Assembly: GCA_937960645.1 (NCBI GenBank)
Contig: CALGPJ010000005.1
Coordinates: 831 to 64,830, forward strand
From: an uncultured Spirochaetia bacterium
Lineage (GTDB): Bacteria; Spirochaetota; Spirochaetia; JABEVK01
DNA length: 64,000 nucleotides
Reading direction: 5' to 3'
The notes beneath the pieces are model-generated. The model was given only the letters and a program-made list of their open reading frames with translations. It was not told the DNA's origin and did not search any database. The translations under genes were made by a program, and so were the position numbers. Position 1 is the stretch's first letter. Each line of letters opens with the position of its first letter. Shown here piece after piece: positions 33,682 through 44,899 of the stretch.

Positions 33682-34155
33682 ATGGATGCCCTCATCCTCT
33701 ACGCCAGCCGCAGTGGCAATACCGAGCGTGCTGCCGAATGGATTGCCGATATACTCCAGGCAAAAGGCCATCAGACCGTAAAGCACAACGCACAGGATTT
33801 TCACCCGGAGCTTTTGACCCGCTTTCCCCTGATCCTGGCCGGCTGCAGCACCATCGGCGAAGGCGACCTTTTGCCGGCCTTCTTTCCCTGGGAAAAAGCG
33901 TTGCGCGAATTGACTCTGGAAGGGGTCTACGGGGCGGCATTCGGTACCGGGGCCGAACGCTACCGGTATTTCGCCGAGGCTGTGGTCATCCTGGAGAATC
34001 GTCTGAAAAATGCCGGTATCAAACTTCTCTTGCCTGGTTTGAAAATCGATACAACTCTTGGAATACGACGCGAGCAGGTGGAACCCTGGGCCCGTAGAAT
34101 CACCGAGAAAATCGACGAAATCCTGTCCAGCGGTGCTACCAATCGCCCCGAATAA
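33682..34155 (+). CDS. flavodoxin
   Basis: YASRSGNTE FMN loop, STIGEGDL, AFGTG. TAAGAT 6 nt before the ATG. Confidence 0.85.
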   Translation: MDALILYASRSGNTERAAEWIADILQAKGHQTVKHNAQDFHPELLTRFPLILAGCSTIGEGDLLPAFFPWEKALRELTLEGVYGAAFGTGAERYRYFAEAVVILENRLKNAGIKLLLPGLKIDTTLGIRREQVEPWARRITEKIDEILSSGATNRPE

Positions 34156-34369: not shown

Positions 34370-35881
34370 ATGGATCCCTTTATCCTTCGTGATCGGCTGA
34401 CTCGATACTCCAATTTGACGGGAATCAAATTCGAAACCCTTCGAGAGCGCTGGAAGGCCATCGAGAATCTTCCCCCCGAAAAGCGTTGCCAGATCAACCC
34501 TTACGATCTTAAATCTGTCCTCGACATGAGTGATGAGGATCTGTACGAATTCTTTTTGAAACTTGTTCAGGTGGAACTCTTGATCCCTCGCTGGTGCCTG
34601 GTTGATGCCCAAACCGGTTTTTATTTCAAAACCTGGCCTGATTTCGCCTCGATTTATACAGAGCGCGAGTTTTGCCCCCTAACCTCCGAGGTGATCGACA
34701 TCGACCTGGAAAAAAACCTGGAAGTCTGCTTTCAGGTTCACCCCGGTATCTACAACGACGAGATCAATCCCTACGACGACTATGCATCCTACATCACGTT
34801 TTTTCGCAGTCAAAAAATCCACTTTTCCGAAGAAATCGATCACTACCTCGGTAAGGACAACACCAAGTTTTTCCATGTGTTCAACAGTTTTGAGCTTGGC
34901 AAAATATCGCTCGAGGCAGAAGCGGGAAAAACGTACAGGATCATCAGTCTCGAAACTCAGGGGAACGTCCTGTTAAGGGTGGCCGCCTCTCCGCAGCAGG
35001 CGAGCTTTCTCAACAAAATGGTTCTTTACCGTGAAAGCAAGACCCCCGTCATGCCAGGCATGGGCAAGCCCGCGCAAAGTCTGGAAATCGAATTGAACGA
35101 GGACGGATTCAAACCCAGGGAACTGACCTGCAAGCCCGGTAGGGTCGAGGTTTGGGTTCAAAGCAACCTCAAGAAAAAGTCCGGCGTACTCGTCCTTGTC
35201 GATGACCTTCCCCGCCTTAAAACTCTTCTCAAGAACTCTCCCCCGCGCAGCGACCAGGTTTTGACCGCCAAGATTTTATTGAGTTCTCGTTCCTACAAGG
35301 AGTACAATGTTCTCAGCCAGGCCGGAGGCGACAAGGCATTTCCGGTCACGGACCTAACCATCCTCTTTGCTGAAATGGAGCCCAATTACGAGCTGTACAC
35401 CACCCAGGGAGATCAAAAAGCCTTCCACCTTATTCAGGAGATGTTGAGCGCCCTGCAGGACCTCGTCACCCTCACCAACGGTGTGGTGGTGAAAACCCTC
35501 GGCACCCTGATCATGGCAATCTTTCACAAGCCCGACGAAGGGGCCCTGGCCTGTGAAAAAATCATGGACAGGGTTCTCAGTCACAACAAAAAAAACCCGG
35601 CCGACAAACACCTTCTGATCAAGGCCGCCATGCATCACGGCGACGCCCTGGCGATAAAGGTCGAAAACAACCTGGATTACTTCGGCAAGCTCATCACCAC
35701 CGCCATCCGGCTCCAATCTCAGGCCGAGGGAATGGAACTGGTCGCGACGCCGGAGCTTGTCCAGACCCTATCGCCAGATTACAACCTCGAGGAAAACGGC
35801 TGGACTGTTCAGGAAAAACAATATTCCATTCAGGAAGGAATCGACTTGAAAGCTTTCTGCTGTAAACGCGCGCCCAAATAA
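34370..35881 (+). CDS. DUF5939-like N-terminus plus class III nucleotide cyclase domain (catalytic residues degenerate)
   Basis: C-terminal LTILFAEM...LY..QGDQKAF..I...GVVVKTLG..IMAIF...LDYFG...AIRLQ cyclase fold. Confidence 0.75.
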   Translation: MDPFILRDRLTRYSNLTGIKFETLRERWKAIENLPPEKRCQINPYDLKSVLDMSDEDLYEFFLKLVQVELLIPRWCLVDAQTGFYFKTWPDFASIYTEREFCPLTSEVIDIDLEKNLEVCFQVHPGIYNDEINPYDDYASYITFFRSQKIHFSEEIDHYLGKDNTKFFHVFNSFELGKISLEAEAGKTYRIISLETQGNVLLRVAASPQQASFLNKMVLYRESKTPVMPGMGKPAQSLEIELNEDGFKPRELTCKPGRVEVWVQSNLKKKSGVLVLVDDLPRLKTLLKNSPPRSDQVLTAKILLSSRSYKEYNVLSQAGGDKAFPVTDLTILFAEMEPNYELYTTQGDQKAFHLIQEMLSALQDLVTLTNGVVVKTLGTLIMAIFHKPDEGALACEKIMDRVLSHNKKNPADKHLLIKAAMHHGDALAIKVENNLDYFGKLITTAIRLQSQAEGMELVATPELVQTLSPDYNLEENGWTVQEKQYSIQEGIDLKAFCCKRAPK

Positions 35882-35932: not shown

Positions 35933-37765
35933 CTAATGCCGGATCCTCACAATCCGGAAGCTCATCCGTGAAGTTTCCCCACTATTCAAATTCAGCGGCC
36001 ACAAAAACAAAAGACGGTAAAAATCTCCCAGGTCCGGCCGAACGCGAACACCTTTGAGGGTACACGGTGAGTCGGTGTGAATAGAAAAAATTGCCTTGTT
36101 CCGATCGTTCGTGACCGCATGCTCTAAAACATCGGCCAGATCGAAACTTTTTTCTTCCGCGATGTTGAGCCGAAACTCCGTCCCGAAATGACCTTCCAAC
36201 TTTAACGGTCCTTGATTCTGAACCGAATACTGCACCGACCATTCGCCTTCCTGAAAAACGAAGCTCTTGTCGATTTTGACCATGAGATCGGGCCCATGCG
36301 TTTTGACAGCACCCCGCCAACTCAAACTCAATTCGTTTTTATCCCGCTCGATCGAACCTACTTTATATTCCTTGTTCCACAATTTGTCGAAAAGGGGCTC
36401 CGTTCCCATCCTCAGCTCCTCCAGGCTGGGAGATCCCCCCCAATAATCCGCTAAAATATAGCGGCGATCTTCCTTGCTTTCATACGAGGGTGCCCAGGAA
36501 AGATTGAGCTTTTTCTCGACCAGATCCCAATCGACGACCTGGCCGCCGTTGGTGGTAATGACGAGGTTGAGGGACTTGCTTTTGAACAAGTACTCGGTGT
36601 GCGAATCCAGGTTGAAGTCCTGCCGAAGCAGCGTCGGTGCAAAGGCGGGTCCCCGCCCGATGGTCTCTGCGGATATCAATTTTTCCATTGCATAGTTTTT
36701 GAACCCGCGATCGAGGTTATTCAGATTGTCCCAGGTGCAGTAAAAATGGTGGTCCTGAGAAAGATATAACTCCTCCAGGGCGGATTCCTTGCGGTACTTG
36801 TCGCCCTTGACCATCCATGTCTGGAAGCTCACATGAACCATTTTCGTATAGAGTTGATTGAACCCCCGAGTGGCACTCAGAATCTGCTTGAAACTCGAGC
36901 GGGCCTTGGCGTGCTCCTGGGGCGGCAGGTCAGCGCCCGCCTCCGTTATCTCCAGATAGCCTGGTGTCGGGAAAAAATAGTGGTGACCCGGCCCATGCTG
37001 ACGCTTCATGAATTGATTGGGCAAAAGGCTCTCGATACGGTCAAAACGGTCTCGCGCCTGATTGATGAACGTCTTGAACGTCTCTTCGGAAAAGGTTCGC
37101 TGTCCATTCCAAAAAAGCCCGATACAGTGGTTTTTTTGGGCATTTTCCGATTCGAATAGCTGATCGACAAGATCCCAAAGCTCCGCATGATCGCCTTCCT
37201 GAAGTTTCCTGCCGAGTTTGAACGAGAAGGGCAGGACGCTCAGGGTGTGTCCCTGGGCCTCGGTAAGGCTGACCCGGTATATCGAGCGCACGTCCTCCAC
37301 ACCGATCCTCTGAAATGCCTCGATGGGCAGAAAGGTATATTCAATTCCGGACTGTTGGAGAACGGGGGGGAGACTTTCGTCCCAGACACCGCGCGTCAGC
37401 CACAACCCACGGGGTTTTCTTGAAAAAGTCTTACTGATCAGCGTCGCTAATTTTTCTATCTGGAGAAGTCGGTCTTTATGAAAGATCAAAGGCAAAAGAG
37501 GGGCACTGTAGCCACCGCCCAAAACCTCCATGCGTTTCGCCTTGACGAGTTCATCGACCACACGGATGAGCTCCGGGTGATATTCCTTCATCCATTCGAT
37601 AAAGGGCCCGGAGAAATAAAGACTGAAGCAAAAGTCCTTGGTGCTGTACGCCTGTGAAACCAGGGGTTTCAAATTTCCGGTATAGTAGTTTTCCAGTTCT
37701 TCGTTGCTCCAGGCAACAGGGGGATGAAAATAGGCGCCTAAGAGAAGACAGACCTTCGGCCTCAC
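35933..37765 (-). CDS. GH57 (alpha-amylase/4-alpha-glucanotransferase)-like protein with degenerate active-site motifs
   Basis: SLYFSGP, EVLGGGYSAPLLPLI, PRGLWL...VWD, GIEYTFL, DFNLD. GTG overlaps the upstream stop. Confidence 0.75.
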   Translation of the reverse strand: MRPKVCLLLGAYFHPPVAWSNEELENYYTGNLKPLVSQAYSTKDFCFSLYFSGPFIEWMKEYHPELIRVVDELVKAKRMEVLGGGYSAPLLPLIFHKDRLLQIEKLATLISKTFSRKPRGLWLTRGVWDESLPPVLQQSGIEYTFLPIEAFQRIGVEDVRSIYRVSLTEAQGHTLSVLPFSFKLGRKLQEGDHAELWDLVDQLFESENAQKNHCIGLFWNGQRTFSEETFKTFINQARDRFDRIESLLPNQFMKRQHGPGHHYFFPTPGYLEITEAGADLPPQEHAKARSSFKQILSATRGFNQLYTKMVHVSFQTWMVKGDKYRKESALEELYLSQDHHFYCTWDNLNNLDRGFKNYAMEKLISAETIGRGPAFAPTLLRQDFNLDSHTEYLFKSKSLNLVITTNGGQVVDWDLVEKKLNLSWAPSYESKEDRRYILADYWGGSPSLEELRMGTEPLFDKLWNKEYKVGSIERDKNELSLSWRGAVKTHGPDLMVKIDKSFVFQEGEWSVQYSVQNQGPLKLEGHFGTEFRLNIAEEKSFDLADVLEHAVTNDRNKAIFSIHTDSPCTLKGVRVRPDLGDFYRLLFLWPLNLNSGETSRMSFRIVRIRH

Positions 37766-38292
37766 ATTCGACCTGCCCCGAAATGAAACAATCCAAAGCC
37801 CGTAGCCGCAAGGGCAAAACTGAGCATCAGGAGGCTGAATCGAGCGCCAGAGGGAATCTCATCGGGTAAAAACCGTGACACCTCCCTCAGAATGACAAGA
37901 GAAATCAAATAGCCCAGCGAAACGGTGAAACACGCAAAGAGGGCTTGTCCCAGATCCGTCAAATTCATCAGGAGCAAGGACGTCCCCAGGGCGGCGGTTT
38001 GTGCTAGCAGGGGAAGAAGCTGATTTTCCTCGGTTTCGAACAAGCCGAAGAGAAGCCAGAGCACCAGGGCGGCCGTCGGCAGAATCAGGGGGACCATCCA
38101 GTTCCAGTCTACGGGAAGGGTTAGGCGGATTATCGTCATCAGGACGCTGGCCAGGAGATTCCAGCCCCAAAGACGCAAGACATCGGCAAAGCGAAACCTT
38201 TCTTGAAATCCCAGGACTTCCAGACCGATGCCCTTGATGAAGAAGATATTCGCTCCCAGAACGAGGGAAACATGGAGGAACCACAGATTCAT
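37762..38292 (-). CDS. RnfA/RnfE-like integral membrane protein (divergent)
   Basis: About 6 TM segments. NIFFIKGIG, LLPLLAQTAALG, LRE..R...IP pattern. Follows the RnfD-like gene with an ATGA overlap. Confidence 0.55.
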   Translation of the reverse strand: MNLWFLHVSLVLGANIFFIKGIGLEVLGFQERFRFADVLRLWGWNLLASVLMTIIRLTLPVDWNWMVPLILPTAALVLWLLFGLFETEENQLLPLLAQTAALGTSLLLMNLTDLGQALFACFTVSLGYLISLVILREVSRFLPDEIPSGARFSLLMLSFALAATGFGLFHFGAGRM

Positions 38293-39317
38293 AGATGATT
38301 CCTCTTGAGTAAAAGCAGCAGGGAGTCGTTTTTGTGGTATATTTCGTCGACCGCCACTCTCTCGAAGAGACGTTGGGTCAGCCAGAGCAGGAGTGATGTC
38401 CCCAGGACCGCCGTGTATGCGTTGACCAAACACCCCAAAAAGCACAATAGCCCTGCAAACAGACCCAGGACGAATCGGGCCCATTTGCCCAGGGGTAATT
38501 GCCGATAATCCGAAAGGTTCCATAAAAGCGGCACCATGAAACTGCCATTGAAGAGAAGAAAAAGTGCGTCACTTTCCCAGAAACTTTTTCCCATAGGTAT
38601 TCCAGCAAGTATCAAGTATAACGGAAAAAACACGATCGTAAAGCCTGAAACCGCGATCCAGGTGAGGTGTCCCCGCGCCCACAGATAAAAAAAACCAAAA
38701 ATCAGGAGGATCCATCCCCTGTCGGCCGGAATCACCGAGTCGGCCCCCTTTAGGGCGTCGACGTATCCGACGGGCATATTGGCCCCTGCCAGGATAAGGA
38801 TGTTGTTGATCCTATCCGTGATCGCCTTGTCGTCACTGCCGGGCTCGATGCCTGCAAGGCCAATACTGTCTCCCACCACCCCCTCGTTCACTTTTTGATA
38901 GTATCGAAACAGCGGGGCCTCGACCTGCTGGAAAAGCAGGGGCCAGGCAAGCACAGCCATCCCGACGACAAGGGAAAAAGCCGGCAGTCTTGGCCGGAAA
39001 TACAGCAAAGCCCCCAGACCGACACTCAGCAACACCCCCAGTATTGAGGGGAAGGTCAGCGGCAGAACCAGGTAGAGCACAAGTCCATAGGGAAGATTTT
39101 GCAGGAACCAACTGAGGACCTCTTCTTTTTTTCTGAAAAAAGAGAAAATTAAGGGGCCGGCGACTCCGTGTAAGAAAACGGTGACGAGGGTGAAAATGTC
39201 GTTGAGCCCGATCAGGATTCCCAGCAATAATACGATGACGATCTCGAGACTTCGGTTGAATACCGTACGAAAAATGAAGGCCTGCGGCGGAAAATTCCCG
39301 CCTTTCTCCTGTTTCAT
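38289..39317 (-). CDS. RnfD-like integral membrane protein (divergent)
   Basis: Multi-TM with a central soluble loop, YLWARG..TW, and LSDY..LP....R...G..AG pattern. ATGA overlap with the RnfC-like gene. Confidence 0.65.
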   Translation of the reverse strand: MKQEKGGNFPPQAFIFRTVFNRSLEIVIVLLLGILIGLNDIFTLVTVFLHGVAGPLIFSFFRKKEEVLSWFLQNLPYGLVLYLVLPLTFPSILGVLLSVGLGALLYFRPRLPAFSLVVGMAVLAWPLLFQQVEAPLFRYYQKVNEGVVGDSIGLAGIEPGSDDKAITDRINNILILAGANMPVGYVDALKGADSVIPADRGWILLIFGFFYLWARGHLTWIAVSGFTIVFFPLYLILAGIPMGKSFWESDALFLLFNGSFMVPLLWNLSDYRQLPLGKWARFVLGLFAGLLCFLGCLVNAYTAVLGTSLLLWLTQRLFERVAVDEIYHKNDSLLLLLKRNHL

Positions 39318-40546
39318 TGGTTCCTCCTTTCCTGTCGAAACCTCTGCAGGAGGGGGATCCGCGAGGGACAAACCGAAGAGCATATTCCGCATTCCAGACA
39401 CCGTTGCAGCTCCGGCCTCAACTCCTGAAACCCGTCTTTCACCTCGAGTCCTTCAAACAGTCGAATCGGGTTGATGCCTACAGGGCAGGAATCGACGCAG
39501 GCCGAGCAGCGGATGCAGGGCTGTTGCTCGGCTATTCGAGTTTCATGAGGGTTCAAGACCAGTATGGACCGTGTGGTGATCGTGATCATGGTGTCGGTCT
39601 GAAGGCGATATCCGCTGAAAGGCCCGCCCCAAATCACGGAATGTTCTCCGGAAGAACTGACGCCGCACTCCTCCAGCAAGTTCGATACAAGTGTCCCAAC
39701 CTTTACCCTGTAAACTTTGGGTTGGGCGACCCCAGACCCGGACACGGTCACGAAAGATTCTACCTGAGGACGGGAGTACCGAGCCAGCAAGGATAATGCC
39801 ACCAGGCTGTCGGCATCGATGACAAGGCTCGTTTCCGAGTTGGAAAGGAGTTTACTGTGAGCCGCAGGATACTCGGCATCATGCCAGGTGACGGTGTAGG
39901 TGCCACTCCCGAATTTGCTGATGACCCTGGCAGCGTAATCCTTGGGGCGTTTGTGCACGGCAAACTCGATTACCTCGGGGCTGTATAGCTTTTTAAGGAT
40001 TTTGATCCCGGTCACTATGTTCTGATCCTCGTAGAGGCACAGGTGGTACCAATTCGTCTGGTAAGGTTCCGGCTGAAGCAAATTGACGATCACCTTCTTT
40101 ATTCGTGCTCTGGGGTCCAGATGGAAAGGCGGTTCCAGGGCACTCGAGGTCGCCAAAAAGTTATAGTACTCCAGCATCTCGAACAGACGGGTGGAATTCC
40201 ACTCCTCCCATGGTTGGGGATTGACCGATTTTCCCGTTCTTTTGAAAGCCCCCTCCAGAGCGATGGCCGCAACGGTGGATTCCGTACCATCAGGAAGAAC
40301 CATACTGGTAACCTTGACAACCCGGCCGGGAATGGGTGAAAAAACCCTGCCCTGCGGTCCCTGTCCGATGATTTGTTCTTCCTCGACCCAATCCCCGGTT
40401 TTGATGAGCCACTCCCCCCCTGTCCCGACGTTCAGCCCCAAGGTCAGCACCGCCACCTGAGGCAGGGCAGCATTTACCAAGCCGTGTCTTTGTGTCAATT
40501 CAAGAAATGGGTCGATCTTGAGCCTCGATTCCATGTGCCGCGTCAT
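39314..40546 (-). CDS. RnfC-like protein (barrel-sandwich, SLBB, 2x[4Fe-4S])
   Basis: FSPIPGRV, NLLQPEPYQT, VTVSG, VKVGT, GGPFSG, CIRCSACVDSCP, CLECGICSSVCPSRIPL. Confidence 0.8.
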   Translation of the reverse strand: MTRHMESRLKIDPFLELTQRHGLVNAALPQVAVLTLGLNVGTGGEWLIKTGDWVEEEQIIGQGPQGRVFSPIPGRVVKVTSMVLPDGTESTVAAIALEGAFKRTGKSVNPQPWEEWNSTRLFEMLEYYNFLATSSALEPPFHLDPRARIKKVIVNLLQPEPYQTNWYHLCLYEDQNIVTGIKILKKLYSPEVIEFAVHKRPKDYAARVISKFGSGTYTVTWHDAEYPAAHSKLLSNSETSLVIDADSLVALSLLARYSRPQVESFVTVSGSGVAQPKVYRVKVGTLVSNLLEECGVSSSGEHSVIWGGPFSGYRLQTDTMITITTRSILVLNPHETRIAEQQPCIRCSACVDSCPVGINPIRLFEGLEVKDGFQELRPELQRCLECGICSSVCPSRIPLLQRFRQERRNQ

Positions 40547-42018
40547 GCTGCCTGCCTCCTCTGTTGCCCCTCGGCTGCCGATCGCCGCCTTTTAACGAAC
40601 TGCGGATTCCCATACAACAAGGATAAAACGATGATCCCCAAAAGGCTCAAAGCCGGAAAGATCGATGGCGATGTCATTATCCGTACTTCTGTGGCTGGCG
40701 AGAGTGTATACTCCGTGTCGCCGATTCCGATCAAATTCCCTAATCCTAAAGCCCCTCCCCTTTTGGCGGCCTCTTCCCTCCACTTCTGATCAAACGGCAA
40801 AATCACCGCATATTCTTCACGAATGTTTTTGCCTTCGCGCCGGTAAAACGGCTGAGTGAGAGGTTTTTCCTCCGGATTTCCGAACTCCACGCCATAAGGA
40901 AAGGCCTCCTGAAAAATCAAATGTGCCAGAAACAACCTCGGCCCGGGAATTCCCTGTCGCAGTTCGATCTCGAAAGATTCCTCACCGCTCAGCTGGGAGG
41001 GCCGGGGTACCTTGATCCAGGGCGGCATCAATTCGACCCGCTCCGTGCCGCTCAACAGCAATGACGGCAAGACAGTTCCCAGCGCCAAAAGAGTTCTTAC
41101 CCTGTCACGGAAACCCGGTTGGCGTGACCTGAGCTCCATGGGCACAAAGAGACGATGCTCGAGCTCGCTGAGCTTTCTTCGCCAATGACGTTGGACGAAC
41201 ATCAAAAAGAGCGCGTGAACCCCTAACAATAAAAAGAATTCCAATATATTTACAACAACCGTCAGGAATTCCGAAGTGAAAAGACTCACGAAACCGGCGG
41301 CCGGTATCAAAAGAAAAAGCCTGGGGATGGTGAATATGGTAAATATGTCGGCTTTTTTCAATGGCCCATCGCGTTGCCTTTTTTCCAACCAATGCCGCAA
41401 CAGATCGAGCACCAGAACCATGAACAGGGAGGCCGCATAAAGACTCAAGAGCCCTCTTTCGCCAACCAAACACAGGTAAAGGATTCCGATGCCCCAAAGC
41501 GCCCACAGCCAGGGGCGAAGCAGTCGCCGAACTCCCAAGCCGATCAGAAACAGGAAGATGGAAAACGCGGCGATCGAAAGGGGAAGCTGGGTCACCCTCC
41601 TTTCTTCCAATTGACTGCCGGGTTGGTGCCAGTGGAATCCATGCCGGCCGAGCCAATCACCAAAGCCCTGGTTCCATCGCGATGCGTGCACATATATCCA
41701 GAAACCATGGTGATCGCTTATAAAGAGCTTGGGCACATTCCTGAGAAAGGGATCCCACCGGGGATCTGTCGGGTGAAGCCTCTGGCTGATTGCCGAGACC
41801 GGAATGATTTCGAATCTGCTGAAGTCGTGAAAAGACACCAGCGCGAGGCTGGGGGAAAGCACCCCCTCCCAACCCTGCTCCCTGACCAACTGCGCCAGCC
41901 TGTTTTCATCCTCGGGAGAACCTCCGACAAATATCGGTTTCCAGTTTTCCCAGGCTTGAATTGTCAAGGGAAGGAGCAACAGAACCACCATGGGCAAACT
42001 TTTTTCCAAATACATCAC
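40543..42018 (-). CDS. hypothetical multi-pass membrane protein
   Basis: Signal peptide, soluble domain, about 7 TM. Tightly coupled to both neighbours. Confidence 0.7.
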   Translation of the reverse strand: MMYLEKSLPMVVLLLLPLTIQAWENWKPIFVGGSPEDENRLAQLVREQGWEGVLSPSLALVSFHDFSRFEIIPVSAISQRLHPTDPRWDPFLRNVPKLFISDHHGFWIYVHASRWNQGFGDWLGRHGFHWHQPGSQLEERRVTQLPLSIAAFSIFLFLIGLGVRRLLRPWLWALWGIGILYLCLVGERGLLSLYAASLFMVLVLDLLRHWLEKRQRDGPLKKADIFTIFTIPRLFLLIPAAGFVSLFTSEFLTVVVNILEFFLLLGVHALFLMFVQRHWRRKLSELEHRLFVPMELRSRQPGFRDRVRTLLALGTVLPSLLLSGTERVELMPPWIKVPRPSQLSGEESFEIELRQGIPGPRLFLAHLIFQEAFPYGVEFGNPEEKPLTQPFYRREGKNIREEYAVILPFDQKWREEAAKRGGALGLGNLIGIGDTEYTLSPATEVRIMTSPSIFPALSLLGIIVLSLLYGNPQFVKRRRSAAEGQQRRQAA

Positions 42019-42020
42019 TC

Positions 42021-42500
42021 CTAGAGGTTCGTGTACGCAATCCCGAGAAAGATTCCCAGAATGATGCCGACAAAGACCTCGGCCGCCTTGTGTCCGTTGA
42101 TTTCTTTGACATGCTTATACGCCATGCCGTGTTTTTGATTGAGGTCCGTGATGATTTGGTTCAGAACCTTGGCCTGGAGTCCAGCGGCCCGGCGAACACC
42201 CAGGGCATCACGAATCGCCAGGAGCGAAAAAAAAAGAGAAACACCGAACAAGGTGCTGGTGACGCCCTCCTGAAACCCCACCACAGTGGTCACCGCCGAC
42301 ACCACGGCCGAATGGCTGGAGGGCATGCCCCCGGTAGACCACAGAAAGGTCACAATCAATCCTTTTCCCAGGCGAGAATTGTACTTCAGAATCGCGATCA
42401 GCGCTTTGATGAATTGTGCCAAAAACCAGGCGGAGATCCCAGCCAATATGATAGGCTGAGAAAAAAACGTTCCGAGGTTATCGAAGGGTTGGAGTGGCAC
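42021..42500 (-). CDS. divergent PAP2 (DUF212) family membrane protein
   Basis: AQFIK, TGGMPSSHSA, DALGVRRAAGLQA.VLN, GH...EV..G. Upstream TTGACA-N17-GAAACT-6nt-GTG. Confidence 0.9.
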   Translation of the reverse strand: MPLQPFDNLGTFFSQPIILAGISAWFLAQFIKALIAILKYNSRLGKGLIVTFLWSTGGMPSSHSAVVSAVTTVVGFQEGVTSTLFGVSLFFSLLAIRDALGVRRAAGLQAKVLNQIITDLNQKHGMAYKHVKEINGHKAAEVFVGIILGIFLGIAYTNL

Positions 42501-42580: not shown

Positions 42581-43357
42581 ATGATCAACCGTACCAAGAG
42601 CGAATGGGCTCTGGCTAGAGATACGATCCTCACTGCCTACAAGGATTTTTTTTTCTGGCTGTACATGGGGCATTTTCCAGCCCGGGAAATTTGGAATCAA
42701 TTTCGCCAGGTCATCAACGATGGATGGCTAACGGTGTTCTGGGGCAGTGTGGTCCAGGGTATCTTCGTCATGTGGTTGGGGGGCTTCTATGGTGAGCAGT
42801 TCGGAGGGTATCGTTGGCTGGGGACCATCACGGTATTCGCCGTCTTACGGGAATTTTCTGTCCTGATGACCAGCGTCCTGTTTGCGGCGCGTATCGGAAC
42901 GGCTTTTACCGTCGAAGTCGGTTCCATGCAAATGACCGAACAAATCGCCGCCTTGAAAATCATGGATGTGGAACCGCATACATACCTGGTGATTCCTCGG
43001 GTTCTGGCCTCGACTCTCGCTCTACCGGTTTTCGTGGGCTTCAGCTTCGGGGTGGCCATCATCTCCAGCTGGATGCTCTCCGACATCTTCTGGGACATCA
43101 GTTTCCAGCAATTTTTCCTCAATGCATTCAACTACATCGGAGGAGACATCGTCACCAACTCCCTGGTTCGATCTTTCATCATCGGTTTCGTGCTTTCCCT
43201 CAATGCCGTTGGTCTGGGTTTTTACCCCTGTGACGGCGCGCAGGAACTGGGGCGGACCACCACCAAGAGCATGGTGGTCAACATCTTTTCCCTTCTTTTG
43301 ATCGATTTGGCTATCGGCATGGCCAGTACCCAGCTCTCGATGGGAGCTCCCTCGTGA
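42581..43357 (+). CDS. mlaE: MlaE-family ABC permease
   Basis: LREF...MT..LFAARIG.AFT.EVGSMQMTEQI.AL.IM...P..YLV.PR, G.TTTKS.V. Confidence 0.9.
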   Translation: MINRTKSEWALARDTILTAYKDFFFWLYMGHFPAREIWNQFRQVINDGWLTVFWGSVVQGIFVMWLGGFYGEQFGGYRWLGTITVFAVLREFSVLMTSVLFAARIGTAFTVEVGSMQMTEQIAALKIMDVEPHTYLVIPRVLASTLALPVFVGFSFGVAIISSWMLSDIFWDISFQQFFLNAFNYIGGDIVTNSLVRSFIIGFVLSLNAVGLGFYPCDGAQELGRTTTKSMVVNIFSLLLIDLAIGMASTQLSMGAPS

Positions 43358-44112
43358 TCGTGGCCGAAGACTTGTGGGTCAAATTCGGCTCCAAAGAGGT
43401 GCTCAAGGGACTGAACATCGAAATCCCGGAGGGCCGCACCACGGTGATCCTCGGCAAAAGCGGTATCGGCAAGTCGGTCCTTTTGAAGTGTATCCTCGGT
43501 CTCCTGCAACCCGTCAGTGGCCGGATTTTCATCGACGGTTCCGAGTTTCTGAGTGCGGGCAAGGCCCAAAAAAAGCAAATGACTGCCTGCATTGGTATGC
43601 TGCTACAAAACGGGGCCCTCTTCGACAGTATGAACGTGGAAGAAAACATCGCGTTTCCGCTGGCCTATCACAAAAAGGCACCCCCTGCCGAAATCCGCAG
43701 GAAGGTTCTGGAATACGCCGAATTGGTCGGTATACAAGACAGCCTTCACCTGATGCCCAAGGACCTCTCGGGGGGAATGCGGCGCAAGGTGGCGCTCGCC
43801 CGCGCCATCATGCTCCAACCCCGATACTTGTTTTACGACGAACCGACCACCGGACTCGATCCCACATCCAGTGCCATCGTGGAAATCCTGATCCGTCAGC
43901 TCAAAGAGCAGCTCGATATCACCACCCTCGTGGTGACCCACGACATCGATCTGGTGGCCTTCCTGGGAGAAGATGTTGCCCTTTTGGATGAAGGCAAAAT
44001 ATTATATAAACAGACGAGGGAAGAGGCATTTCGGGAGGATTCACCCATTTACCGCTCCTTCATCGCCAGTCGAAAAAGGATACAGAATGAACAAGGTTTC
44101 ACAAACGATTAA
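43354..44112 (+). CDS. mlaF: MlaF-family ABC ATPase
   Basis: GKSGIGKS, QNGALFDSM, LSGGMRRKVALARA, YDEPTTGLDP. Confidence 0.92.
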   Translation: MIVAEDLWVKFGSKEVLKGLNIEIPEGRTTVILGKSGIGKSVLLKCILGLLQPVSGRIFIDGSEFLSAGKAQKKQMTACIGMLLQNGALFDSMNVEENIAFPLAYHKKAPPAEIRRKVLEYAELVGIQDSLHLMPKDLSGGMRRKVALARAIMLQPRYLFYDEPTTGLDPTSSAIVEILIRQLKEQLDITTLVVTHDIDLVAFLGEDVALLDEGKILYKQTREEAFREDSPIYRSFIASRKRIQNEQGFTND

Positions 44113-44899
44113 GACCATCCTTCTCGTTCTCATCAGTATCCTCACTGTTGTCGTTTTGTATTCGATGATTTTCAGGGTCGATTTTTTCAATACCGGCATC
44201 AACTATTACATGGAGTTCGATCAAATCGGGACCATCGTCACCGGTTCTCCCGTACGTAAGGCCGGAGTCAAGGTGGGCAGCGTGATCGAGGTGAACATTA
44301 ACCCGGAAACCCAAAGGACCGTGTTGCTCCTGGTACGGTTGTTCCCGGGAAACATCATTCGGAAAAGCGATCAAATCTCCATCCTCACCGGCGGCCTATT
44401 GGGGGACCAGTTCATCGACATCCTCCCCGGCGATCCTTCCGCCGAAGCCTATGCCCCTTTTTCGCTGATCAAGGGCCGGCCCAGCTTCGATCTCGCGTCC
44501 ATCGCGGCCACCGGCGAAGACGTTTTGAAGGAAGTCACACGGGTCAGTGCGTTGATCGGCAACCTCATCGACAGAAACTCGGAGTCCATTAGCAATTCCC
44601 TTTCCAACATCGAAAAACTTTCCAAAGACCTCCAGGTCTTAGGCAGGACGGTCAACACCCTGGACACTGAGGTTACCAGAATTTCCAACATGCTCGGTCC
44701 CACCCTGGAAAGCATCCAGAAAACAGCCGTTCAAATCGAGTCCCTGGCAAAGACCCTGAACAGCAGCGAATCGATCTTTGGCTATGTCAACAGACCTTCG
44801 ACCCGTAACAAAATCGACAGCATCCTCACCGAGCTTCAGGAAGTGACACAAAACCTCAATAGTATTACCAAAGAAATCCAATCGGCATTAAAACCCTGA
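44087..44899 (+). CDS. mlaD: MlaD/MCE family protein with a long helical C-terminus
   Basis: One TM, GSPVRKAGVKVGSV, GLLGDQFIDI.PG. Confidence 0.9.
   Translation: MNKVSQTIKTILLVLISILTVVVLYSMIFRVDFFNTGINYYMEFDQIGTIVTGSPVRKAGVKVGSVIEVNINPETQRTVLLLVRLFPGNIIRKSDQISILTGGLLGDQFIDILPGDPSAEAYAPFSLIKGRPSFDLASIAATGEDVLKEVTRVSALIGNLIDRNSESISNSLSNIEKLSKDLQVLGRTVNTLDTEVTRISNMLGPTLESIQKTAVQIESLAKTLNSSESIFGYVNRPSTRNKIDSILTELQEVTQNLNSITKEIQSALKP

What the first reader, a model, noticed from the sequence alone, without database searches (positions are those of the whole stretch)
35933..42500. Six-gene coupled operon: DUF212 + unknown membrane protein + cofactor-stripped 'pseudo-Rnf' (C, D, A/E) + degenerate GH57
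Seen: the six minus-strand genes abut or overlap (ATGA/GTGA junctions at 40546, 39317, 38292 and 37765) behind one promoter. The RnfC-like protein keeps both C-terminal [4Fe-4S] motifs, but the canonical GIVGxGGAxFP flavin/NADH loop reads FLATSSALEPPF and the AECEP Cys is replaced (LQPEP). The RnfD-like protein has EAPL at my best alignment to the FMN-linked ATPL threonine. The single RnfA/E-like protein lacks the LGxCP and TNC cysteines, and no rnfB or rnfG is present. Known: functional Rnf needs six subunits and these cofactors. Inference: this is not an NADH:ferredoxin ion pump but a repurposed membrane complex (Fe-S redox sensor or scaffold) linked to a PAP2-like phosphatase and a glucan-binding GH57 relic. 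This is my best candidate for an undescribed system here.
Basis: partly seen in the sequence, partly recalled or inferred. Interest (0 to 1): 0.72.

Follow-up and report, generated by a model that had tools for sequence, protein, structure and literature searches.

The report
Cofactor-stripped Rnf kept across spirochaetes
This operon is the spirochaetes' native copy of the Rnf energy pump with its flavin and membrane iron sites removed; related stripped copies remain under selection in Treponema and, with no iron-sulfur motif left, in Borrelia, so it likely does a second, non-energy job, and the idea that it powers the syphilis bacterium looks doubtful.

Summary
Observation confirmed. The six genes are real and coupled. 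RnfC*, RnfD* and RnfA* lack the FMN/NAD loop, the FMN threonine and both iron cysteines. A separate complete rnfBCDGEA operon lies on contig C6. The locus is the ortholog of T. pallidum tp0153-tp0147, published as a working 'noncanonical Rnf' pump. Of 121 Spirochaetia loci, 45 are intact, 13 partial and 63 stripped. A second intact rnfC is present in 56/63 stripped versus 3/45 intact genomes. Stripping recurred many times, and stripped genes keep dN/dS of 0.06-0.27. New here: this family's missing RnfE sits elsewhere, stripped and fused to a CheR-like domain (8/9 genomes of the family, plus one other family). All 7 Borrelia genomes examined keep duf212-mem-RnfC*::RnfD*-RnfA* with no Fe-S motif, plus a relocated RnfE* just behind a chemoreceptor gene. 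The membrane gene matches BB_0071, whose transposon mutants were not recovered from ticks in a published screen. Verdict: not an ion pump, likely a retained non-redox membrane scaffold. A link to chemoreceptor arrays is the leading but unproven role.

The parts
42021..42500 (-). DUF212 (divergent PAP2 family) membrane protein, 159 aa; GGMPSSH, RDxxGVR and GH motifs intact; ortholog of the first gene of the T. pallidum and Borrelia operons
   Evidence: Pfam PF02681 E=8e-40; motifs 98-100% conserved over 91 rows including Borrelia
40543..42018 (-). 'mem': Spirochaetia-specific polytopic membrane protein, 491 aa (ATG two codons in is an alternative start); N-terminal signal, a likely periplasmic alpha/beta domain built from two segments, about 7 membrane helices; ortholog of B. 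burgdorferi BB_0071 by position, size and sequence
   Evidence: No Pfam/NCBIfam hit; profile hits 46 of 49 same-class and 0 of 202 other genomes of the phylum; AF2 model pLDDT 77.7; no PDB fold match at E<=0.001; BB_0071 link
39314..40546 (-). RnfC*: barrel, NuoF-like and SLBB domains plus two [4Fe-4S] motifs; FMN/NAD loop, ECEP and YPQGxE motifs lost
   Evidence: TIGR01945 190 bits, below cut-off 246; alignments
38289..39317 (-). RnfD*: no FMN-carrying Thr; of the riboflavin-site residues, Asp248-equivalent kept and Asn124-equivalent replaced by Arg
   Evidence: PF03116 37 bits; alignments; residue roles from PMC9588780 passages
37762..38292 (-). RnfA*: both iron-binding cysteines lost
   Evidence: Cys25/Cys113 roles from PMC9588780
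35933..37765 (-). GH57 4-alpha-glucanotransferase-like protein (TP0147 type); the column of the 1K1W catalytic glutamate is replaced; likely a pseudo-enzyme and an optional neighbour
   Evidence: PF03065 and PF09095; alignment to 1K1W; Glu at that column in 41 of 120 loci; catalytic residue numbering recalled

Best explanation
The operon is the native Spirochaetia rnf locus with its electron-carrier sites removed, and its products likely still assemble into an RnfC*-D*-A*-E* membrane scaffold that does a second, non-redox job, most likely anchoring or signalling at chemoreceptor arrays together with the DUF212 and 'mem' proteins. Shown: the cofactor motifs are gone; a complete Rnf is encoded elsewhere in this genome; the same site carries an intact rnfCDGEAB in many relatives; stripped genes stay open and under purifying selection; the missing RnfE is kept elsewhere, itself stripped and fused through a proline-rich linker to a CheR-like domain; Borrelia keeps the same core with RnfC fused to RnfD and no Fe-S motif. 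Inferred: the ancestral complex had two jobs. When a second rnf operon took over ion pumping (or, in T. pallidum and Borrelia, when pumping was given up), the native copy shed RnfB, RnfG function and the flavin and iron sites and kept only the structural job. My odds: not a pump about 0.93; an assembled complex kept for a non-redox role about 0.75; that role being chemosensory about 0.3.
For: Own genome has canonical rnfBCDGEA (C6) and nqr (C7). Of 121 loci scored on 10 cofactor motifs: 45 intact, 13 partial, 63 stripped. A second over-cut-off rnfC elsewhere in 56/63 stripped, 12/13 partial and 3/45 intact genomes (read by hand, tallied). 20 of 20 second operons fetched have C, D, G, E and A with all four A/E cysteines and the RnfG Thr; RnfB lies in the fetched stretch in 19. 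Second copies fall on one side of a branch away from all 70 native copies (SH 100, FastTree). The GH57 tree needs 16 state changes, 11 without partial loci. In 9 independent pairs a second copy goes with stripping in 5.6 and against in 0.0 on average, median p 0.031. dN/dS of stripped C/D/E/A 0.06-0.27; Borrelia C::D 0.14-0.17, A* 0.13-0.24, E* 0.21-0.24; one fusion pair 0.09. Borrelia C::D fusion in 7/7 with profile E 1e-38 to 1e-42 for the C part and 1e-18 to 1e-24 for the D part, no hits with reversed sequences, no CxxC. RnfE*-CheR fusion in own genome and 7 of 8 family relatives and in G318 of another family. RnfE* lies directly downstream of a chemoreceptor gene in 7/7 Borrelia. bb0071 mutants (3 insertion sites) were not recovered from larval ticks (PMC6516651).
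Against: The second job is not universal. G188 and G333 have mem next to gh57 with no rnf gene between them; G335 and G354 gave no rnfC hit at E<=1e-25; four loci keep only C and D and one keeps only C. No neighbour is obligate: the T. pallidum-type locus lacks mem, Borrelia lacks GH57, and G349/G369 show neither mem nor duf212 at the locus and no PF02508 hit. The chemotaxis link rests on one fusion and one gene adjacency, and the relocations in f1, f71 and Borrelia may be a single event. Only 1 of 14 chemoreceptor-like ORFs here ends in a CheR-binding pentapeptide, and the Borrelia receptor next to rnfE* does not. Without partial loci the independent-pair test has only 5 pairs (median p 0.125). 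RnfC keeps all eight cysteines in 63 of 63 stripped non-Borrelia loci, so some redox role may persist outside Borrelia. No unsaturated dN/dS pair includes the window's own genes. The tick screen has bottlenecks, and its insertions may be polar.
Confidence: 0.65

Rival explanations
1. It is a working noncanonical Rnf pump that binds flavin non-covalently or at cryptic sites and takes electrons from flavodoxin (the Deka/Norgard model for T. pallidum).
For: tp0147-tp0153 are co-transcribed (data not shown in the paper) and conserved in treponemes; T. pallidum has an A-type ATP synthase and no other Rnf (PMC4436053, PMC7512555 passages). G094 has only the stripped copy. RnfD riboflavin-site Asn and Asp are kept in 90% and 68% of stripped loci.
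Against: The NAD/FMN loop is intact in 0/63 stripped loci, RnfA first Cys 0/63, RnfB N-terminal cluster 0/63. The electron path of PMC9588780 needs RnfB, Fe-AE, FMN-G, FMN-D and FMN-C. Stripping follows the presence of a second complete pump. The Borrelia form has no cluster motif at all.
Confidence: 0.05
2. It is a reduced redox module or sensor: RnfC's two [4Fe-4S] clusters plus RnfD's riboflavin report or relay cytoplasmic redox state.
For: All eight RnfC cysteines are kept in 14 of 14 stripped lineages, and RnfD G114, P123 and P262 in 14 of 14. A CheR-like fusion would give a signalling output.
Against: Borrelia keeps the genes under selection with the ferredoxin domain gone. The window's RnfD has lost the riboflavin-site Asn. 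The clusters may simply be structural.
Confidence: 0.17
3. The scaffold serves envelope lipid metabolism: it organises the DUF212 lipid-phosphatase-like enzyme and 'mem' (for example polyprenyl-phosphate recycling or lipid transport), and the CheR fusion is a lineage-specific add-on.
For: DUF212 heads the operon in the window, T. pallidum-type and Borrelia loci with invariant PAP2-like motifs and is present in 54/63 stripped loci. The mem model's top, non-significant fold hits are HpnN/MmpL/RND transporters (E 0.15-0.65).
Against: DUF212 is adjacent in only 18/45 intact loci. The fold hits are not significant (TM-score <=0.2). No substrate is known; a search for DUF212 papers gave nothing relevant. 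The prenyl-phosphate link is recalled, not tested.
Confidence: 0.1
4. The genes are slowly decaying relics of a redundant operon.
For: Complete loss or loss of most subunits occurs in some lineages. dN/dS is relaxed compared with intact copies (0.00-0.24, mostly <=0.11).
Against: Open frames persist over more than one substitution per site; dN/dS is far below 1; the genes are kept in 0.9-1.1 Mb reduced chromosomes; an in-frame C::D fusion and a separately kept RnfE* exist.
Confidence: 0.03

Closest known systems
T. pallidum 'noncanonical Rnf', tp0153-tp0147 (Deka et al. 2015, PMC4436053; 2020, PMC7512555)
   Same: Same locus and order (DUF212, RnfC, RnfD, G/E/A-like, GH57). G094, whose RnfD* is named T. 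pallidum RnfD in public sources, shows this layout. The paper already notes the missing FMN motif.
   Different: The papers read it as an energy-conserving pump; here it is stripped at every relay. The window adds mem, lacks G and E in the operon, and has a relocated RnfE*-CheR fusion. The class-wide intact/stripped pattern and the Borrelia form were not found in the searches made.
Canonical Rnf (C. tetanomorphum 7ZC6, A. woodii 9ERI, A. vinelandii 8AHX)
   Same: RnfC, D, A and E folds by profile match; RnfC [4Fe-4S] motifs.
   Different: No RnfB or RnfG; no FMN-C/NAD loop, FMN-D Thr or A/E cysteines.
Na+-NQR, derived from Rnf by duplication and neofunctionalisation (PMC4014512)
   Same: A duplicate Rnf that lost rnfB and took a new job.
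   Different: NQR kept the flavin/iron relay and is still a pump; this copy lost the relay.
CheR methyltransferase (1AF7, 1BC5)
   Same: The fusion's C-terminal domain matches the SAM-binding domain and the beta-subdomain (PF01739 E=5e-17).
   Different: The N-terminal CheR domain is replaced by RnfE*; the second Glu of GEE and the Arg of CRN are mostly changed; G318's copy keeps mainly the beta-subdomain region. Residue roles are recalled.
Electron-flow-independent use of Rnf by the Bacteroides toxin Bte2 (PMC12718326)
   Same: Shows that an Rnf complex can matter structurally without electron flow.
   Different: There an intact pump is exploited by a foreign toxin; here the host itself keeps a stripped complex.

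Membership tests
Rnf ferredoxin:NAD+ oxidoreductase | Six subunits RnfABCDGE | tested here: not met
   C, D, A in the operon; stripped E on C65; no G or B for this copy
Rnf ferredoxin:NAD+ oxidoreductase | RnfC FMN/NAD site (GxGGAxFP, ECEP, YPQGxE) | tested here: not met
   TIGR01945 below cut-off; motif roles partly recalled
Rnf ferredoxin:NAD+ oxidoreductase | RnfC two [4Fe-4S] clusters | tested here: met
   8 Cys in the window; absent in the Borrelia form
Rnf ferredoxin:NAD+ oxidoreductase | RnfD FMN-Thr (Thr153 in 7ZC6) | tested here: not met
   EAPL at that column
Rnf ferredoxin:NAD+ oxidoreductase | RnfD riboflavin site (Asn124, Asp248) | tested here: inconclusive
   Asp kept, Asn replaced by Arg in the window; 90%/68% kept over stripped loci
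Rnf ferredoxin:NAD+ oxidoreductase | Four A/E cysteines binding iron | tested here: not met
   0 of 4 in RnfA* plus relocated RnfE*
Rnf ferredoxin:NAD+ oxidoreductase | Redox-coupled Na+/H+ translocation | not testable with these tools
   needs biochemistry
T. pallidum-type noncanonical Rnf locus | duf212 ... rnfC rnfD ... rnfA gh57 synteny, native clade | tested here: met
Active GH57 4-alpha-glucanotransferase | Catalytic Glu/Asp pair and HxH motif | tested here: not met
   alignment to 1K1W; numbering recalled
CheR methyltransferase (fusion on C65) | N-terminal domain with catalytic Arg plus intact SAM site | tested here: not met
   N-domain replaced; GxGxGE and the Asp kept, GEE/CRN changed; roles recalled
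Assembled C*D*A*E* complex with mem/DUF212 | Physical association | not tested

The most novel reading that the evidence does not exclude
Spirochaetes turned their ancestral respiratory Rnf into a cofactor-free membrane machine, conserved from free-living species to T. pallidum and Borrelia (BB_0070-0073 plus BB_0595 by position). It docks on chemoreceptor arrays through RnfE* (a CheR beta-subdomain fusion here, co-transcription with a receptor in Borrelia) and reports membrane or envelope state to motility. T. pallidum would then have no Rnf-based ion pump.
Probability: 0.27. Interest if true: 0.9.

Novelty: new variant of a known kind. Interest (0 to 1): 0.76.

Why it matters
A published model of syphilis bioenergetics rests on this operon being a pump. 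The class-wide pattern says it is a stripped paralog, and T. pallidum's only copy, which makes that model directly testable. It also identifies an Rnf-derived complex in Borrelia, an organism recalled as not using iron-sulfur chemistry, and links it to a gene needed in ticks in a Tn-seq screen. More generally it is a case of a respiratory complex repeatedly converted into a pseudo-enzyme scaffold once a replacement pump is present, which implies that intact spirochaete Rnf has an unrecognised second function.

Tried and rejected
The search for related loci with the window RnfC alone found no relative; a GH57 alignment worked. The locus set is therefore anchored mostly on GH57 and biased towards GH57-linked operons. 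Promoter scan uninformative. No RNA holder listed, which is no evidence either way. ESM Atlas gave only unnamed Spirochaetota clusters for mem, with recognition 2066 below the tool's threshold. Whether the fusion's RnfE* descends from the native or the second operon is unresolved: profile scores are similar and the tree has long branches. A fixed neighbourhood for the fusion was rejected because neighbours differ within the family. No other domain fusions on stripped subunits were seen in the 121 loci. My RnfG profile missed truncated G; a 111-184 aa ORF lies between D and E in 44 of 61 non-intact loci that have E, and 2 stripped ones (L114, L210) carry an [ST]GA[TS] string. The single-protein fusion search missed G318's divergent fusion (versus 122), so 'not seen' in the other 20 non-family genomes is weak. 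Literature searches for the fusion, for Borrelia Rnf and for BB0070-73/BB0595 and for DUF212 listed nothing describing them; the library lacks most subscription papers, and bioRxiv supplements are closed.
Full report
Observation. The six ORFs, their coordinates and the four start/stop overlaps are as reported. Pfam names DUF212, RnfC_N/Complex1_51K/SLBB/Fer4, NQR2_RnfD_RnfE, a weak Rnf-Nqr and Glyco_hydro_57; the 491-aa membrane protein ('mem') has no family. RnfC scores 190 bits on TIGR01945, below the cut-off of 246. Against intact copies the window lacks the GxGGAxFP loop, ECEP and YPQGxE of RnfC, the S/TPL threonine of RnfD and both cysteines of RnfA, but keeps RnfC's eight cysteines. Passages of the C. 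tetanomorphum structure paper (PMC9588780) give the electron path RnfB - Fe(AE, four Cys) - FMN-G - FMN-D (Thr153) - riboflavin (Asn124, Asp248) - two RnfC clusters - FMN-C - NAD+. All but the clusters, and possibly riboflavin, are gone here. A promoter could not be shown.

The genome does not need this copy as a pump. G000 (99% complete) carries a complete rnfBCDGEA on contig C6 with all motifs, and an nqr operon on C7.

The locus is known in one organism. Passages of Deka et al. 2015 (PMC4436053) and 2020 (PMC7512555) describe tp0153-tp0147 of T. pallidum as a co-transcribed 'noncanonical Rnf' that lacks a flavinylation motif, and propose it as a flavodoxin-fed ion pump. Genome G094 has that seven-gene layout without mem, its RnfD* is named T. 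pallidum RnfD in public sources, and it has no other rnfC. Two earlier notes of this scan made the same point for Treponema.

Class-wide survey. I gathered 181 stretches (window, L047-L226) and annotated them with profiles built here. After dropping stretches without an operon anchor, 5 duplicates, and loci without a scorable RnfC and RnfD, 121 remained. On ten cofactor motifs, 45 are intact rnfCDGEAB between duf212/mem and gh57, 13 are partial and 63 are stripped. The GH57-like anchor occurs in 170 of 201 class genomes and mem in 46 of 49 same-class and 0 of 202 other genomes. Eleven further Treponema-like loci were all stripped in RnfC. On a GH57 tree, independent of the rnf genes, state changes 16 times, 11 without partial loci (FastTree, unrooted). 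Direction is inferred: several lost cofactor sites are unlikely to be regained.

Stripping tracks a second pump. An over-cut-off rnfC elsewhere in the genome is present for 56/63 stripped, 12/13 partial and 3/45 intact loci (read by hand; six are split or cut by contig ends; tally). With kinship removed, 9 starred independent pairs give 5.6 agreeing and 0.0 opposing on average (median p 0.031); without partial loci 5 pairs remain (p 0.125). Twenty second operons were fetched: all have C, D, G, E and A with four A/E cysteines and the RnfG threonine, 19 show RnfB, and 19 show the RnfD Thr/Ser by alignment or pattern. With the own copy they fall into several types outside the native clade. The seven stripped loci with no second copy include G094, three 1.7-2.1 Mb genomes, and three incomplete assemblies.

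The stripped genes are maintained. dN/dS is 0.06-0.27 for stripped C, D, E and A in unsaturated pairs among 10 stripped pairs, versus 0.00-0.24 (mostly <=0.11) in 6 intact pairs (Nei-Gojobori). No unsaturated pair includes the window's genes. Kept in all 14 stripped lineages are the RnfC cysteines and fold glycines/prolines and RnfD G114, P123 and P262.

The missing RnfE. In this family (f1) the window and the seven relatives with D and A in view have no gene between them. Contig C65 encodes an RnfE-like domain (PF02508 over cut-off), a proline-rich linker and a CheR-like domain (profile hits to 7ZC6_E at 4e-22 and to CheR 1AF7 at 1.5e-15). The fusion is full-length in the own genome and 7 of 8 relatives; it was not found in G397, 90% complete. 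Both RnfE cysteines are lost. Only 6 protein clusters matched it at E<=1e-20 among 7998 candidates scored. G318 of family f71, also without rnfE in its operon, has a more diverged fusion (hhalign probability 98.7) that keeps mainly the beta-subdomain region, which binds receptor pentapeptides according to a passage of PMC7390727. The own genome has three other CheR-family proteins and 14 receptor-like ORFs, one with a pentapeptide.

Borrelia. The mem profile hit all 7 genomes of family f5, two of which public protein names identify as Borrelia. All 7 carry duf212 - mem - a 767-773 aa RnfC::RnfD fusion - RnfA*, followed by a release-factor-2 gene in the two read in full (label recalled). The fusion has the RnfC barrel and NuoF-like parts, no ferredoxin domain and no CxxC; reversed controls give nothing. 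A stand-alone RnfE* lies directly downstream of a chemoreceptor gene and upstream of argS in 7 of 7. dN/dS is 0.13-0.24 for these rnf-derived genes. BB_0071 (65768-67240, +) matches mem in position and size, and an insertion-site flank in the supplement of PMC6516651 translates to a stretch identical at 13 of 15 residues to the mem of L261. Its mutants (3 sites) were among 46 genes not recovered from larval ticks (Table 2, section 18 part 1, S1 File). BB_0070, 0072, 0073 and 0593-0596 have no rows in that file; the library covers 45.5% of genes, so this is only suggestive. BB numbers other than 0071 and 0597 are assigned by position. Public databases already label the Borrelia fusion as RnfD or RnfC-domain protein; no paper on it was listed.

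Mechanism. The same core (C*, D*, A*, with E* kept even when moved) survives in the window's family and in Borrelia, the latter without any cofactor motif, so the retained job needs the scaffold and not electron transfer. I read this as subfunctionalisation of a two-job ancestral complex. The job itself is inferred. The two independent-looking ties of RnfE* to chemoreceptor biology make anchoring or signalling at arrays my first choice (about 0.3), ahead of residual Fe-S sensing and envelope-lipid organisation with DUF212 and mem. Against universality: some lineages lost most or all rnf genes at the locus, and neither mem, DUF212 nor GH57 is always present. The GH57 column of the 1K1W nucleophile holds Glu in 19/45 intact, 11/13 partial and 11/62 stripped loci, so it is often a pseudo-enzyme regardless of Rnf state. 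The mem model (pLDDT 77.7, pTM 0.72) has no significant PDB match. Physical association was not tested.

Comparison and verdict. It fails membership of functional Rnf, is a member of the T. pallidum-type locus, and differs from the published reading of that locus. PMC4014512 (passages) lists Spirochaetes only in a table; PMC12718326 (passages) shows an electron-flow-independent use of Rnf by a toxin; PMC9524633 (one passage) lists BB_0070 as a hypothetical protein. Searches listed no paper on the intact/stripped pattern, the RnfE-CheR fusion or the Borrelia form. Novelty: new variant of a known kind. Interest 0.76.

Noticed in passing
G000:C65:26193-27611 (L014:8194-9612, +): Stripped RnfE fused through a proline-rich linker to a CheR-like domain; convergent with a 345-aa gene that looks like a flagellar-brake/PilZ protein (label recalled, not scanned).
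   Followed up: yes
L261-L267 and L288-L294 (Borrelia genomes): duf212-mem-RnfC::RnfD-RnfA* with no Fe-S motif, and rnfE* between a chemoreceptor gene and argS.
   Followed up: yes
G000:C6:143624-148583 and C7:62.6-65.7 kb: The genome has a complete rnfBCDGEA (preceded by a small cysteine-rich RseC-like gene, label recalled) and also an nqr operon, so three Rnf/Nqr-type loci in 2.2 Mb.
   Followed up: partly
L084:9568-12693 (G029): In this lineage the stripped rnf operon runs directly into riboflavin synthesis genes (labels recalled) instead of gh57.
   Followed up: no
L112, L121, L156, L158, L166, L176, L277: A deletion route besides stripping: only C+D, only C (with a near-intact NADH site in L112 and L121), or no rnf gene left between mem and gh57.
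   Followed up: partly
L191, L192 (G349, G369; 1.7 Mb genomes): Only a partly stripped rnf copy, no second rnfC, and a 724-739 aa gene directly upstream of rnfC in place of mem/duf212.
   Followed up: no
window 35933-37765 and orthologs: The GH57-like gene is in 170 of 201 class genomes, mostly without catalytic residues but with a conserved NQxRGDKxRK stretch not present in the Thermococcus enzyme.
   Followed up: partly
window 34370-35881 (+): DUF5939 plus adenylate/guanylate cyclase-like gene convergent with the operon's end; flavodoxin gene at 33682-34155.
   Followed up: no
window 42581-44899 (+): mlaE with an ABC ATPase and an MlaD-like gene, divergent from duf212 across an 80-bp gap.
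   Followed up: no
G000:C42:2101-2439 and C25:12712-13470: A second, diverged DUF212 between a threonyl-tRNA ligase-like and a rhomboid-like gene (labels recalled); and an FMN_bind lipoprotein.
   Followed up: no
L190, L199, L200, L218, L221: A cluster of families with intact rnf and gh57 but neither mem nor duf212 at the locus.
   Followed up: partly
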